A stretch of DNA of 63,880 nucleotides, the filler included, from a bacterium (GTDB taxonomy: Bacteria; UBA9089; CG2-30-40-21; SBAY01): assembly GCA_040757115.1 (NCBI GenBank). It is 5 parts of 5 records of this genome, joined end to end, with 100 filler letters (N's around TTAATTAATTAA, not from the genome) between each part and the next. Parts side by side here need not be neighbours in the genome. Positions count along the whole stretch, not along the records: positions 13,462 to 26,821 come from JBFLYA010000108.1; 4 more parts are not named here. The stretch is one strand, 5' to 3'. Both the position numbers and the translations under genes were made by a program. Position 1 is the first letter of the stretch; every line of letters begins with the position of its first letter. The notes below the pieces were generated by a model, which did no database searches, was not told where the DNA came from, and saw nothing but the letters and a program-made list of their open reading frames with translations. Shown here piece by piece: positions 165-62,842 of this stretch.

Positions 165-446
165 GTAACCGTTCACCGCAGAGACGCAGAGGAACAGAGA
201 AGATATGGAAATAAATCAGATAACAGAAAAGATTATTGGTGTAGCCATTGAAATACTTATGACCTGCTTGCCGAATGTTCAGCCGGCAAGCCAGATTTGT
301 TAATCCATCCCTGATTTTCATCAGGGCAAGTTTAATGTTGTTGGACTCAAGAGCTTGCACTGATGAAAATCAGGGATGTTAAGCCTATCGTAAATAAATT
401 TTAATTTTCTTCTCTGCGTCTCTGTGTCTCTGCGGTGAACGGTTAC
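165..446 (+). mobile_element. GTAAC-TIR element, family C, carrying an internally deleted GxxExxY gene remnant
   Basis: TIR GTAACCGTTCAC...GTGAACGGTTAC; CCGCAGAGACGCAGAG arms; encodes [17 protein letters not shown]; near-identical to 21369-21661; no TSD. Confidence 0.85.
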
Positions 447-1507: not shown

Positions 1508-1685
1508 ATTTCGACCTGTGCAGGTAGAAAATTAAGGAAGCAGATTTTTAATAGTAAGCGGATTTAACGGATTTAGCGGAAAAAGAAATAAAAAAAATCC
1601 GCTCAATCCGTTTAATCCGCTTACAATAAAAAATGTAATCTGTTTAATCAATTATCCTTTTATTTCTAATTGCACAGGTGGAAAT
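1508..1685. mobile_element. Miniature IR element (ATTTCGACCTGTGCA ends) with nested GTAAGCGG...CCGCTTAC hairpin (1554-1624)
   Basis: 14/15 inverted repeats at 1508 and 1671-1685; related ends at 4234-4248 and ~16752. Confidence 0.6.
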
Positions 1686-13461: not shown

Positions 13462-13784
13462 TGTCCACAACTTACCCACAATTGCTTGGATAACTCCTTT
13501 GGAGTTACCCACACTCTCCACATCACTACCAGTACTAATAATTAATTTTTTAATTTTATTTTCAACCCCCAACCCCCAATCTTGGGGGCTTTAATAAGGA
13601 ATTAGGATTGTGGCATTCAAAATGACCAACAATATATATTATACGAGGACGATGAAAATGTAGTTTTATGATTCGATGGTTTTATAGTTTAAGAAGATAA
13701 GCATGGACGCAGGATACAAGTCTGGAGATACTATACTAATTCACTAATCTCTAATTCACTAATTCGCTATTTTCAGGAGAAGAA

Positions 13785-14785: not shown

Positions 14786-14864
14786 AATTTTATCTCCCCT
14801 CCTTTTTTAATCGACATTTATTTAAAAAAACTTTAGTAAAATTTAAAAAAAAATTAACTTTTCT

Positions 14865-15410
14865 GTAACTATTCAGCATACCAAGCAAGTAGGAAGTAGG
14901 AAGTAGGAAAGGGGGAAAATACTTCATACTATTTTACTCTTAATTGATTTGATTAAACCTATAAGCATCCTACTCACTTCTTCAGATATATCCCAAATGG
15001 ATTGAAAATCTGGCAGATAATTAAGATCTTTAGATAGAATTAGATAATACCTTTCCTACTCTCCTACTTCCTACTTTCAGGGAAATCTCCCCCATTTCAC
15101 TGACGCATTACCTTAGTTCTTCAAGAGAGCCCTGGCTTATATTATAGGCATTTAACTTATTCTTTATGCCTTGTTTCTTAAAACCTTCTGCAATATTTGC
15201 TGGAATAGAAACAGCCGCTTTGCACATCTGTTGCACCAATCCATATTTTTCTTCAGTGGGGAAGTTTTTGGTTATTTCGTATATTCTTATCACTAAATGA
15301 TGGCTTTTTTGCCATACTACAAGTTGTCTAAAATCATCTAACTTCTCATTCATTTTCTTCCCCTTTCCTACTTCCCTACTCTCCTACTTTCCTACAGGGT
15401 GAATAGTTAC
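14865..15410. mobile_element. GTAAC-TIR element carrying a four-helix-bundle gene between AAGTAGG/CCTACTT heptamer arms
   Basis: GTAACTATTCA...TGAATAGTTAC; perfect 8-bp TSD ACTTTTCT. Confidence 0.9.
14924..15353 (-). pseudogene. Four-helix-bundle protein (TIGR02436/23S-IVP/Avd-like) interrupted by a 61-bp insertion
   Basis: FRQLVVWQKS..L...IY.IT..FP.EEKYGL..QM..AAVSIPANIAEG; continues RYYLILSKDLNY...MLIGLIKS after removing an insert flanked by TACCT repeats (15048, 15109). Confidence 0.85.
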
Positions 15411-15506
15411 ACTTTTCTTACCATTTCAAATATATCATAGAATTATATAGATGTCAATTCTAAACATAGCCTGGATTATCCAATTAGCGTTACGCCAGTT
15501 GGATAA

Positions 15507-16944: not shown

Positions 16945-17122
16945 GTAATGTCAGTCGTCAGTGGCGTGGGGGGATTAACCTGACTTTTAGAAGAAATCAC
17001 GGAAACACAGAAATGATGAAACACGGAAAATTGATTTTTACTCTGTGTTTCTGTCCTTCCGTGTTTCTGTGGTAACAACTCTCATTTTCAAGAGAACGCC
17101 CCCCATTTCACTGACCCATTAC
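16945..17122. mobile_element. Palindromic element with GTAATG..TCAGT ends and CACGGAAACAC arms
   Basis: Right end CCCCCATTTCACTGACCCATTAC matches the insert in the four-helix-bundle gene (~15089-15111). Confidence 0.55.
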
Positions 17123-17281
17123 AACTATACTTCATTTCCTCATAAATTATACTTAATTAGGCAGAGATCTGAAAACAGAAGATAGACTTCTATCTTCTGA
17201 CCTCTGTTCTCTGTCTATAGTTATAAACTAAAGGAATCACCAGGAACTTTTAAGAAATCACAATAATTGTTAAAATTTTTC

Positions 17282-20598: not shown

Positions 20599-20835
20599 AT
20601 GAACTTATGGGAATCATTAGCCCTGGTAGGCACAGCGGCGACAATATTAGGGGTATTTTTGACTGTCTATGGGGTAGTGAATAATAAAACACTAAAGAAT
20701 GAAACCAAATTAACACGAGAAACAATAGAAGAAGAGGGTAAGTTGACACGAGAGATGATTAAAGAAACTACTGAATATTTAGGTAGGCTAATTGTGGCTG
20801 ACGGAGATAGAACCCGTCTGGCTATGAGTAAGTAG
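20599..20835 (+). CDS. Small membrane-anchored coiled-coil protein, copy 1
   Basis: AGGAGG RBS, N-terminal TM helix; three near-identical copies. Confidence 0.75.
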   Translation: MNLWESLALVGTAATILGVFLTVYGVVNNKTLKNETKLTRETIEEEGKLTREMIKETTEYLGRLIVADGDRTRLAMSK

Positions 20836-21004
20836 AAAAGTTATCATACAGCAAATATAGAGAGAAGAAAGGTTATCTTTCTTTGAACCTGAAATTTGAA
20901 ATTTATTCGGGATTTGGTGTCTGGAATTTGGAATTTCTGGGTGAATACCACCATCCGTCCAGTTAAAGATGTAGGTAAAGATTAGAAAAGGAGGATACAG
21001 GGAA

Positions 21005-21307
21005 ATGAACTTATGGGAATCATTAGCCCTGGTAGGCACAGCGGCGACAATATTAGGGGTATTTTTGACTGTCTATGGGGTAGTGAATAATAAAACACTA
21101 AAGCATGAAACCAAATTAACACGAGAAACAATAGAAGAAGAGGGTAAGTTGACACGAGAGATGATTAAAGAAACTACTGAATATTTAAGCAGGTTGAGTA
21201 AAGAAACTACTGAATATTTAAGCAGGTTGAGTAAAGAAACTACTGAATATTTAGGTAGGCTAATTGTGGCTGACGGAGATAGAACCCGTCTGACTATGAG
21301 TAAGTAG
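21005..21307 (+). CDS. Small membrane-anchored coiled-coil protein, copy 2 (two extra 11-aa repeats)
   Basis: As copy 1 plus two 33-bp in-frame repeats KETTEYLSRLS. Confidence 0.75.
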   Translation: MNLWESLALVGTAATILGVFLTVYGVVNNKTLKHETKLTRETIEEEGKLTREMIKETTEYLSRLSKETTEYLSRLSKETTEYLGRLIVADGDRTRLTMSK

Positions 21308-21368
21308 AAAAGTTATCATACAGCAAATATAGAGAGAAGAAAGGTTATCTTTCTTTGAACCTGGAATT

Positions 21369-21661
21369 GTAACCGTTCAGGGGGTAATTTACCGCAGAGA
21401 CGCAGAGGAACAGAGAAGATATGGAAATAAATCAGATAACAGAAAAGATTATTGGTGCAGCCATTGAAATACTTATGATCTGCTTGCCGAATGTTCAGCC
21501 GGCAAGCCAGATTTGTTAATCCATCCCTGATTTTCATCAGGGCAAGTTTAATGTTGTTGTACTCAAGAGCTTGCACTGATGAAAATCAGGGATGTTAAGC
21601 GTATCGTAAATAAATTTTAATTTTTTCTCTGCGTCTCTGTGTCTCTGCGGTGAACGGTTAC
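21369..21661 (+). mobile_element. Family C element with GxxExxY remnant
   Basis: TIRs; TSD CTGGAATT/CTGAAATT (7/8); empty site present in the paralogous spacer at 20889. Confidence 0.92.
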
Positions 21662-21775
21662 CTGAAATTTGAAATTTATTCGGGATTTGGTGCCTGGAAT
21701 TTGGAATTTCTGCGTGAATACCACCATCCGTCCAGTTAAAGATGTAGGTAAAGATTAGAAAAGGAGGATAGGGAA

Positions 21776-22024
21776 ATGAACTTATGGGAATCATTAGCCC
21801 TGGTAGGCACAGCGGCGACAATATTAGGGGTATTTTTGACTGTCTATGGGGTAGTGAATAATAAAACACTAAAGCATGAAACCAAATTAACACGAGAAAC
21901 AATAGAAGAAGAGAGTAAGTTGACACGAGAGATGATTAAAGAAACTACTGAATATTTAGCTAAATATTTAGGTGATCTAATTGTGGCCGACGGGGGTAGA
22001 ACTCGTTTAGCTATGAGCAAGTAG
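21776..22024 (+). CDS. Small membrane-anchored coiled-coil protein, copy 3
   Basis: As copy 1 with a 4-aa insertion and diverged 3' end. Confidence 0.75.
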   Translation: MNLWESLALVGTAATILGVFLTVYGVVNNKTLKHETKLTRETIEEESKLTREMIKETTEYLAKYLGDLIVADGGRTRLAMSK

Positions 22025-23421: not shown

Positions 23422-23822
23422 TAAGGTTCTGCAAAATAGGATTTGGGGGAGACAACAAATAAATATCAAATATCAAATATTAAATATCAAATATAAATAT
23501 CAAAATGCAAAATTACAAATCAAATTCCAAAAAGGACTTCAAGTATTTTAATGCTGAAATGTAGTAGATAGTAGATAGTTTATAGTAGATAGTTTATAGT
23601 AGATAGTTTATAGTAGATAGTTTATAGTAGATAGTTTATAGTTGAAGGACTATAAACCATAAACTATAAACCATAAACTATAAACTATACACTATAAACT
23701 ATACACTATAAACCCTAAACTATAAACGAGTTTTGCATTTTGCTCTTTGGAGGAAATTGATAAAAATAAAGGCTTTAAATACCCGCTTAAAAACTACAGT
23801 TTCCTGGTTTTGCAGAACTCTA
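23422..23822. mobile_element. Family E miniature element with nested GATAGTTTATAGTA/CTATAAA hairpin
   Basis: TIR TAAGGTTCTGCAAAA...TTTTGCAGAACTCTA; 12-bp TSD ATTGGGAGATAA duplicating the ugd 3' end. Confidence 0.88.
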
Positions 23823-32723: not shown

Positions 32724-32977
32724 GTAACCGTTCAGATAGTAATTCACCGCAGAGACGCAGAGGAACAGAGAAGAAATTGAAATAAATCAGACAACAGAAA
32801 AGATTATTGAGGCAATTATTGTCCTACATAGGACCTCAAAACCAAATTTGTTAATCAATCATGATATGTCGGTTTTCAAAAGCTTGCTCTGATGAAAATC
32901 CGTGATGGAATGAGGCATGTGGTAAATAGTTTTTAATTTTTTCTCTGCGTCTCTGTGTCTCTGCGGTGAACGGTTAC
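32724..32977 (+). mobile_element. Family C element with degenerate GxxExxY remnant
   Basis: TIRs and CCGCAGAGACGCAGAG arms; EINQTTEKII; no TSD. Confidence 0.82.
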
Positions 32978-36088: not shown

Positions 36089-36485
36089 TAGCTGTTCACC
36101 GCACAGACACAGAGACGCAGAGAAAAAAATTAAAATCTATTCACCAGAGACAGAAATTTCCTTTTTTTGTGTGCCTTTCGGGTCTTTCGTTGTTTATTAA
36201 TCTTCTAATACTTACTTTTAACTAACTGTTTTTAAGCCTTTTTAAACACCGAAAAACGCGATAAACACGAAAAAAAAGTAACCGTTCACCGCAGAGACAC
36301 AGAGACGCAGAGAAAAAATTAAAATTTATTGATAACTATTCAGCCACAGATGGACACAGATGAAACACTGATTTTATTTTTTATCCGTGCTAATCCGTGT
36401 TAATCAGTGGCTGAATAGTTACTTTATTTCTATGTTTTCTCTGTTCCTCTGCGTCTCTGCGGTAAAGGATTACTTGAACGGTTAC
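36088..36485. mobile_element. Composite family C element (second C end at 36278, mini-B at 36332-36422)
   Basis: Outer TIRs; perfect TSD CAATTTTA. Confidence 0.88.
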
Positions 36486-62522: not shown

Positions 62523-62842
62523 GTAACTATTCAGCCACAGATGGACACGGATGAAACACTGAAAATTCGGGACGGTTCCTTTTATCGTTTTTCCTATGAT
62601 TTTTGTTGGAAATTGGAAATTAGAAATTGGGCTTTTGTCTCTCTCCCTAATTTCCAATTTCTAATTTCAATCCGCAAGCTTTCAAACAAAAGTGAACCGT
62701 CCCTAAAATTCGTAATCCGTGTCCGTAATTAGGCTAAAGGTTTTTCCGCCTGTTGTCCTCTGCCTTCTGCCCTCTGCCCTCTGCCTTCTGCCCTCTGTAT
62801 TTATCCGTGCTAATCCGTGTTAATCAGTGGCTGAATAGTTAC
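62523..62842. mobile_element. Family B element with nested GGGACGGTTC element (62569-62703)
   Basis: Outer TIRs without TSD; inner TSD GAAAATTC/TAAAATTC. Confidence 0.85.

What the first reader, a model, noticed from the sequence alone, without database searches (positions are those of the whole stretch)
14865..15410. Four-helix-bundle (Avd/IVP-like) gene as passenger of a TIR element
Seen: TSD, TIR, AAGTAGG heptamer arm, gene, CCTACTT arm, TIR, TSD. Removing a 61-bp insert (TACCT duplicated) restores a 122-aa ORF (14924-15353). The insert itself contains CCTACT heptamers, a junction-like TTTCAGGGAAA and an end shared with 16945-17122. Established: TIGR02436 proteins are widespread, often multicopy and of unknown function. 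This is direct evidence of how such a gene moves, and it suggests that the many empty heptamer hairpins in the window are collapsed versions of such cassettes.
Basis: partly seen in the sequence, partly recalled or inferred. Interest (0 to 1): 0.75.

Follow-up and report, generated by a model that had tools for sequence, protein, structure and literature searches.

The report
Mini-transposon carrying a four-helix-bundle cassette
A small jumping element that lacks its own transposase has picked up a hairpin-flanked gene of unknown function and copied it around this bacterium's genome while the gene decays, which shows one way such genes multiply but not how they normally move.

Summary
Real, with corrections. 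Window 14865-15410 is a 546-bp non-autonomous IS66-type element: 11-bp TIRs (GTAACTATTCA) and an 8-bp target duplication (ACTTTTCT). A same-genus genome has the empty site with one target copy. The passenger is a heptamer-arm / PF05635 (TIGR02436) / arm cassette. This genome holds 11 complete copies, 8 with exact TSDs; only one keeps an open frame, and two near-invariant arginines are lost. The 61-bp insert is one end of a second MITE, and its TACCT 'duplication' is best read as microhomology, not a TSD.

The TIR route is not the general one. Of 80 homologues, 0 have these ends on both sides and 46 have arms. Here 12 of 16 four-helix-bundle lineages have no recognised TIR pair and are single-copy; the four TIR-borne lineages are the amplified ones. 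Arm type tracks protein clade across phyla. 'Empty hairpins are collapsed cassettes' holds for part: 148 of 263 long-loop hairpin calls contain gene sequence (intact genes included), 0 of 186 with 18-59-bp loops.

Verdict: a MIC/MITE-type carrier with unusual cargo. This scan noted the arm-gene-arm layout in other genomes and this nesting elsewhere in this genome; the empty site and decay series were tested here.

The parts
14857..14864 (+). Left copy of the 8-bp target-site duplication (ACTTTTCT)
   Evidence: single copy at the empty site in G001
14865..14877 (+). Terminal inverted repeat, IS66 type (GTAACTATTCAGC)
   Evidence: 415 exact copies of the 11-mer in the genome with no conserved base outside it
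14883..14918 (+). AAGTAGG heptamer arm (the arm downstream of the gene)
   Evidence: pairs with the other arm in the predicted RNA fold
14924..15049 (-). 3' part of the four-helix-bundle gene (about codons 82-122 and stop)
   Evidence: TIGR02436 positions 70-109, E 0.0038, below cut-off alone
15050..15111 (-). Remnant of a second MITE (family B): its GTAATGCGTCAGT end, subterminal region and one AAGTAGG arm; net 61-bp insert
   Evidence: alignment to full copy C44:7807-8008; about 25 near-full matches in the genome
15112..15119 (+). Inferred 8-bp target of the family B insertion (its second copy inferred lost in the later deletion)
   Evidence: abuts the family B end at the same position in C11, C90 and C450; inference
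15112..15353 (-). 5' part of the four-helix-bundle gene (codons 1-81), with Cys44/Lys45 where homologues have Arg-Arg
   Evidence: PF05635 96.5 bits, cut-off 33.8; TIGR02436 86.5 bits, cut-off 24
15355..15396 (+). CCTACTT heptamer arm (upstream of the gene, next to its purine-rich leader)
15398..15410 (-). Terminal inverted repeat, IS66 type (GTAACTATTCACC on the minus strand)
15411..15418 (+). Right copy of the 8-bp target-site duplication
16945..17122 (.). Another family B-type element with a different hairpin cargo; no exact 8-bp TSD seen
   Evidence: flanks read

Best explanation
Two layers. The inner unit is an old, widespread cassette: a four-helix-bundle gene between two inverted heptamer arrays that can pair into a long stem. 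In this lineage one such cassette (AAGTAGG arms) came to lie between the ends of a single-ORF (ISBst12-like) IS66 element, giving a transposase-less carrier. An IS66 transposase acting in trans copied it to new sites with 8-bp duplications. The protein is not needed for this spread and decays neutrally. A second MITE inserted into one copy, and deletions between arms or at short microhomologies then produced the shorter derivatives; the window copy is one such intermediate. SHOWN: ends, TSD, empty site, multiple copies, an IS66 with near-identical ends, decay, deletion series. INFERRED: trans-mobilisation, the order cassette first and IS ends second, and the full-length family B insertion intermediate.
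For: Empty site in G001 with one target copy. 8 of 11 complete copies here have an exact 8-bp TSD; 6 of 10 fetched G001 copies do, read by eye. TIR family: 1428 ends, 134 of 400 pairs with an 8-bp TSD against 0.5 in the control. A broken IS66 transposase lies between such ends at C198:3441-4623, and an intact 468-aa single-ORF IS66 of 1495 bp with GTAACCGTTCA ends lies in G007. A published ISBst12-group element has GTAACTGCTCAGCA ends, one ORF and an 8-bp DR (PMC12898284, passages). Arms predate the TIRs: the protein sits in a 19-row clade (support 99/97) from at least five phyla, 14 rows with AGTAG-type arms and none of the other class, and 0 of 80 homologues have IS66 ends on both sides. Decay: Arg44 (78 of 80 homologues) is Cys in all 8 copies covering it, Arg45 (80 of 80) is never Arg in the window or C409 copy and varies P/K/R/T; 6 synonymous against 29 non-synonymous base changes, neutral expectation 20% synonymous; 3 single-base deletions. 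All 4 TIR-borne lineages are multicopy and all 12 without a recognised TIR pair are single-copy.
Against: No intact transposase with these ends was found in this genome; the six PF03050 hits are partial or broken, in a 462-contig assembly. The intact IS66 has the CCGT variant (9 of 11 bases shared), and TATT ends pair almost only with TATT ends, so the exact parent was not found. The G007 element shows no TSD. 3 of 11 copies lack an exact TSD. No copy with the complete family B insertion was found. The capture step itself was not observed.
Confidence: 0.85

Rival explanations
1. TIR-element carriage is the normal way TIGR02436 genes move, and TIR-free copies have lost their ends.
For: Four unrelated TIR families here carry four-helix-bundle cassettes: 8-bp TSD (IS66 type), CTAG, TTAA/TTTA and TA. 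88 of 159 TSD-validated IS66 MITEs have subterminal inverted arms against 0.7% of control segments.
Against: 0 of 80 homologues have IS66 ends on both sides, and the 4 generic TIR+TSD hits all use GAATTC with heptamer-like 'TIRs', read as array artefacts. None of 29 displayed loci from five relatives shows these ends in the 150-170 bp printed. At the tRNA-Leu/gyrA spacer two same-genus genomes carry different genes with different arms, flush against the tRNA end, with no TIR seen. The TIR-borne family studied is decaying.
Confidence: 0.07
2. The cassette inserted on its own into a pre-existing small MITE or IS66, and flanking DNA was then trimmed; the carrier did not capture it. This differs from the best explanation only in how the two layers met.
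For: Arm elements and MITEs insert into one another throughout these genomes. In family D a 142-143-bp form without these arms exists beside 717-718-bp cassette-bearing forms.
Against: The family D short form has its own different interior, so it is not a clean empty carrier. In the IS66 family the arms start a median 8-13 bp inside the 13-bp ends, leaving almost no IS interior on either side.
Confidence: 0.4
3. The gene is useful cargo kept by selection (a transporter-type element spreading a functional RNA-binding protein).
For: One copy (C409) keeps a full 122-aa frame scoring 120 bits on PF05635.
Against: 10 of 11 complete copies here and all 10 fetched G001 copies are interrupted, frameshifted or deleted; conserved arginines are lost and substitutions look neutral.
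Confidence: 0.05

Closest known systems
Mobile insertion cassettes (MIC231 of the IS231 group) and MITEs with passenger genes (PMC6199540, passages)
   Same: Two IS-derived inverted repeats, no transposase, one passenger CDS, mobilisable in trans in the published case
   Different: IS66-type ends and 8-bp TSD; 485-550 bp, below the cited 700 bp-3 kb; the passenger is itself a heptamer-armed cassette and is decaying
IS66 family, ISBst12 group (ISDge4; PMC12898284, passages) and tIS66 with passenger genes (ISPa75; PMC12888890, passages)
   Same: GTAA-initiated ends, 8-bp direct repeat; IS66 elements are known to carry passengers
   Different: No transposase inside; perfect TIR only 11-13 bp; the exact autonomous parent was not found
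ORF-bearing 23S rRNA intervening sequences (Coxiella S23p; PMC4990558, passages)
   Same: Same protein family inside complementary arms that form a stem
   Different: Lies between protein genes, not in rRNA; arms are heptamer arrays; wrapped in IS ends; RNase III processing untested
DGR accessory protein Avd
   Same: Distant sequence similarity (PF22296 37.8 bits for the intact copy)
   Different: Below the curated cut-offs (40 for PF22296; NF033474 27.2 against 80 for the 5' part); no reverse transcriptase inside the element
Intergenic heptamer repeats (TAACTGA of Beggiatoaceae; PMC4679880, passages)
   Same: Tandem 7-mers ending just upstream of start codons, with a patchy distribution and no known mobility mechanism
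   Different: That paper's main text has no match for four helix, S23 or intervening; it treats direct repeats, not gene-enclosing inverted arms

Membership tests
IS66-derived MITE / mobile insertion cassette | Short TIRs beginning GTAA | tested here: met
   11/11 TIR; conservation starts exactly at the G
IS66-derived MITE / mobile insertion cassette | 8-bp target-site duplication | tested here: met
   ACTTTTCT on both sides; family peak at 8 bp, 134 of 400 against 0.5
IS66-derived MITE / mobile insertion cassette | Empty site with one target copy in a relative | tested here: met
   G001:C57
IS66-derived MITE / mobile insertion cassette | No transposase inside the element | tested here: met
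   546 bp accounted for by arms, PF05635 gene and insert; no PF03050 hit there
IS66-derived MITE / mobile insertion cassette | Autonomous IS66 with matching ends | tested here: inconclusive
   Intact single-ORF IS66 in G007 and a broken one in G000 carry the CCGT/GCGT variants (9 of 11 at best); none found with the TATT variant
IS66-derived MITE / mobile insertion cassette | Mobilisation in trans by the transposase | not testable with these tools
   needs a transposition assay
PF05635 / TIGR02436 four-helix-bundle proteins | Score above the curated cut-off | tested here: met
   96.5 and 120.1 bits against 33.8; 86.5 against 24
PF05635 / TIGR02436 four-helix-bundle proteins | Intact frame with conserved residues | tested here: not met
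   Window copy interrupted; Arg44/Arg45 replaced by Cys/Lys. It is a pseudogene member.
DGR Avd | Score above the Avd model cut-offs | tested here: not met
   37.8 against 40; 27.2 against 80 for the 81-aa part
DGR Avd | Adjacent reverse transcriptase and template repeat | tested here: not met
   Immediate neighbours are a FlgM-like gene and an AAA ATPase; the wider genome was not searched for an RT
rRNA intervening sequence | Located inside an rRNA gene | tested here: not met
   Lies between two protein genes
rRNA intervening sequence | Termini pair into a long stem enclosing the ORF | tested here: met
   Predicted fold pairs both TIRs and both arms; no shuffle control on that fold
rRNA intervening sequence | Excision by RNase III | not testable with these tools
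   no RNA run listed

The most novel reading that the evidence does not exclude
Arm-gene-arm cassettes (four-helix-bundle and GxxExxY) are an undescribed class of mobile element with their own TIR-independent route. That route delivers them to the spacer just upstream of a ribosome-binding site, where one cassette or bare hairpin replaces another. Their long palindromic arms also make them the preferred raw material for new MITEs of several IS families, which then amplify and erode them. This would explain both the multicopy orphan genes and many orphan heptamer arrays.
Probability: 0.4. Interest if true: 0.75.

Novelty: new variant of a known kind. Interest (0 to 1): 0.42.

Why it matters
It gives a documented case (filled and empty site, TSD, deletion series) of how a TIGR02436 gene becomes multicopy. 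It separates two things that are easily confused: copy number comes from hitch-hiking in IS-derived carriers, while the conserved unit is the TIR-free arm-gene-arm cassette. Multicopy status should therefore not be read as evidence of function. It also points to where the open question can be tested: orthologous spacers such as tRNA-Leu/gyrA, where close relatives swap cassettes without TIRs.

Tried and rejected
1) A 6-bp TSD with a 12-bp TIR: rejected, the family-wide signal is 8 bp with the TIR starting at G. 2) TACCT as the TSD of the insert: rejected; the insert is a one-ended remnant of a family whose full copies show 8-bp duplications (3 of 9 pairs exact, three more at 7 of 8 by eye). 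3) An intact cognate transposase in this genome: not found with PF03050 or with the C198 protein; the assembly is fragmented, so this is not absence. 4) A generic TIR+TSD screen on 80 homologues: 4 hits, all GAATTC with heptamer-like repeats, rejected. 5) Apparent 13 copies of the C413 gene: these are another MITE inserted at its 3' end. 6) Family D as a clean test of event order: inconclusive. 7) Expression: no RNA holder listed. Contigs of three DNA runs of one study show the 61-bp-skipping form as DNA and other flanks at the element's end; one run may be the source of the window, so this is not independent. 8) Three rows of the DUF177/rpmF comparison (G002, G004, G005) were cut at the wrong side and the G002 dsrD row is not orthologous upstream; they were not used. 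9) No structure prediction or complex job was run.

Full report
OBSERVATION. The window carries the 8-mer ACTTTTCT at 14857-14864 and 15411-15418, enclosing a 546-bp element whose first and last 11 bases are perfect inverted repeats. Inside lie an AAGTAGG array, a minus-strand gene and a CCTACTT array. The 5' part of the gene scores 96.5 bits on PF05635 and 86.5 on TIGR02436, and the 3' part matches the rest of the TIGR02436 model weakly. Removing 61 bp gives a 122-aa frame. The neighbours are a FlgM-like gene and an AAA ATPase, both on the same strand as the cassette gene.

IT IS A TRUE INSERTION. In same-genus genome G001 the two flanks are contiguous and share one copy of the 8-mer. The pattern GTAA[CG][CT][AG]TTCA occurs 1428 times in this genome. 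Of 405 paired elements, 400 had full flanks and 134 of those have an exact 8-bp duplication, against 0.5 with shuffled flanks; other lengths are at background. Pairing was mechanical and nesting is common, so the other 266 include mis-pairs.

WHICH TRANSPOSON. PF03050 gives six hits here, all partial or broken. The best, C198, lies between GTAAGCGTTCA and GTAACCGTTCA ends. Searching 21 genomes with it found in G007 an intact 1495-bp element with one 468-aa ORF and GTAACCGTTCA ends. The published ISBst12-group element ISDge4 has one ORF, GTAACTGCTCAGCA ends and an 8-bp repeat (PMC12898284, passages). The window element's TATT variant shares 9 of 11 bases with the G007 ends. TATT ends pair almost only with each other, so a sister IS66 not found here is the likely parent.

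THE FAMILY AND ITS DECAY. Eleven complete copies with the same two ends occur in this genome (284-546 bp), 8 with exact TSDs, plus three partial ones; one further pattern hit was a false match. Only C409 has an open frame; C407 has a frameshift. The ten regions fetched from G001 and one from G003 are all deleted forms. Against 80 homologues, Arg44 (78 of 80) is Cys in all 8 copies that cover it, and Arg45 (80 of 80) is Pro, Lys, Arg or Thr. Base changes among the 19 copies compared with C409 are 6 synonymous to 29 non-synonymous, counted per base, where 20% synonymous is the neutral expectation. The homologue set was seeded with query peptides, so some columns are invariant by construction; positions 44-45 were not among the seeds.

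THE 61-BP INSERT. It aligns over 62 columns with one end of a ~200-bp element with GTAATG..TCAGT ends; about 25 places match it almost in full. Full copies show 8-bp duplications in 3 of 9 pairs. C90 and C450 have the same end at the same base of the gene but keep the element's interior and lack the gene's 3' part; the window copy keeps the 3' part and lacks most of the element. The simplest history (inference) is one full insertion followed by different deletions. The window deletion ends at AAGG, present both in the element's arm and at the target, and the element's first bases GTA equal the gene's next bases. Together these produce the apparent TACCT repeat. Twelve further copies begin the gene at this same junction, as expected from arm-to-arm recombination in a window-type copy.

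IS THIS HOW THE GENE FAMILY MOVES? Of 26 PF05635 hits, 7 are this family, 7 lie in three other TIR families (CTAG, TTAA/TTTA and TA duplications), and 12 have no recognised TIR pair. Arms are general: 18 of 25 loci scored reach an arm score of 14, against 2.2% of 1532 short ORFs and 1.0% of 1598 long ORFs (one hit at a contig end was left out, and interrupted copies score low). The four TIR-borne lineages have 3-82 near-identical pieces (the query included some arm sequence), and the 12 others are single-copy. Among 80 homologues from other genomes, 46 reach the arm score and none has IS66-type ends on both sides. The cross-locus control there is 14%, raised by shared arm types. In the tree the query lies in a 19-row clade (99/97) spanning at least five phyla, with 14 AGTAG-type rows, 5 unclassified and none of the 27 CAG-type rows; AGTAG labels need 7 changes against 15.6 shuffled, 0 of 500 as low. 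The classes were defined after looking at the data, 37 of 80 rows were unclassified, kin share labels, and only 122 columns were used, so this shows clustering, not co-evolution.

A ROUTE WITHOUT TIRS. At the tRNA-Leu/gyrA spacer, G000 and G001 carry different four-helix-bundle genes with different arms, G002-G004 carry bare hairpins of three other units, and G005 a short remnant. All lie between the tRNA end and the gyrA ribosome-binding site, with no TIR seen. Different occupants also appear before dsrD, rpmF and one further site, while the fabD/fabG cassette is shared by G000 and G001 and missing from the short G003 spacer. These were read by eye at 5 sites; gene names other than those scanned are recalled from sequence, not from a call. 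The mechanism of this turnover is the unexplained part.

EMPTY HAIRPINS. A script called 606 repeat-armed hairpins (some elements counted twice). Of 263 with loops of 60 bp or more, 148 contain four-helix-bundle (42) or GxxExxY (106) sequence, intact genes included; 42 hairpins keep both gene ends with the middle deleted. Of 449 random segments, 4 had a DNA hit and 1 a protein hit. None of 186 loops of 18-59 bp had a hit, and 157 loops under 18 bp were not searched. Of 159 TSD-validated IS66 MITEs, 44 have GxxExxY and 6 have four-helix-bundle remnants, and 88 have subterminal inverted arms. So collapse is shown for long-loop hairpins, mostly of GxxExxY origin, and is untestable this way for the short ones. 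The short hairpins in the window (1556-1624, 23559-23713, 62605-62670) have no IS66 ends adjacent.

WHAT IS KNOWN. Transposase-less IS ends around a passenger gene are MICs (PMC6199540, passages), and IS66 elements with passengers are described (PMC12888890, passages). The same protein family inside a stem is the 23S rRNA IVS (PMC4990558, passages). Nine searches of the open library (listings and abstract starts) showed no paper on heptamer-armed four-helix-bundle cassettes or their carriage by IS66 MITEs. Passages of PMC4679880, PMC8700078 and PMC8024623 were read and do not describe it. Subscription papers, ISfinder and supplements were not seen. Earlier notes of this scan report the arm-gene-arm layout in other genomes and the two-tier nesting in this genome; they are unchecked AI notes and are not counted as support.

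VERDICT. A real, well-documented passenger element of a known kind with unusual cargo. The generalisation does not: the TIRs are a recent, lineage-specific wrapper that amplifies a decaying gene. Interest 0.42; the higher-value question is the TIR-free cassette.

Noticed in passing
window 14808-14835 (minus strand): A sigma-28-like promoter (consensus recalled, not from a call) lies upstream of the FlgM-like gene; the element inserted about 30 bp upstream of it, so it probably leaves that promoter intact.
   Followed up: no
G000 C356:6700-7400 and C430:38300-38900: Four-helix-bundle cassettes and a bare hairpin with the same arms sit between ~25-bp partial copies of a CRISPR-like repeat, as if inserted at the repeat with duplication of its 3' part.
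   Followed up: no
G000 C256 tRNA-Leu/gyrA spacer and orthologues L164-L168: Six related genomes each hold a different arm element (two full cassettes, three bare hairpins, one remnant) at the same spacer.
   Followed up: partly
window 23559-23713: A long bare hairpin (6-bp loop) nested inside a collapsed C126-type four-helix-bundle cassette.
   Followed up: partly
window 165-446, 21369-21661, 32724-32977, 36278-36485: IS66-type MITEs with CGCAGAG arms; those at 165 and 21369 correspond to genome hairpins that keep both ends of a GxxExxY gene.
   Followed up: partly
window 20599-22024: Three tandem near-identical small ORFs (78, 100 and 82 aa) separated by repeat elements.
   Followed up: no
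window 17158-17217 and about 13737-13775: A 60-bp bare hairpin upstream of the IMPDH-family gene, and a one-sided repeat array just before the ABC ATPase start.
   Followed up: no
G000 C413:6001-6369: A four-helix-bundle gene truncated near its 3' end by yet another multicopy element, seen at 12 other places.
   Followed up: partly
G000 C20:10653-10936 and C58:2910-3200: Copies of the studied element in which the gene is replaced by an unrelated purine/pyrimidine hairpin, still with exact TSDs.
   Followed up: no
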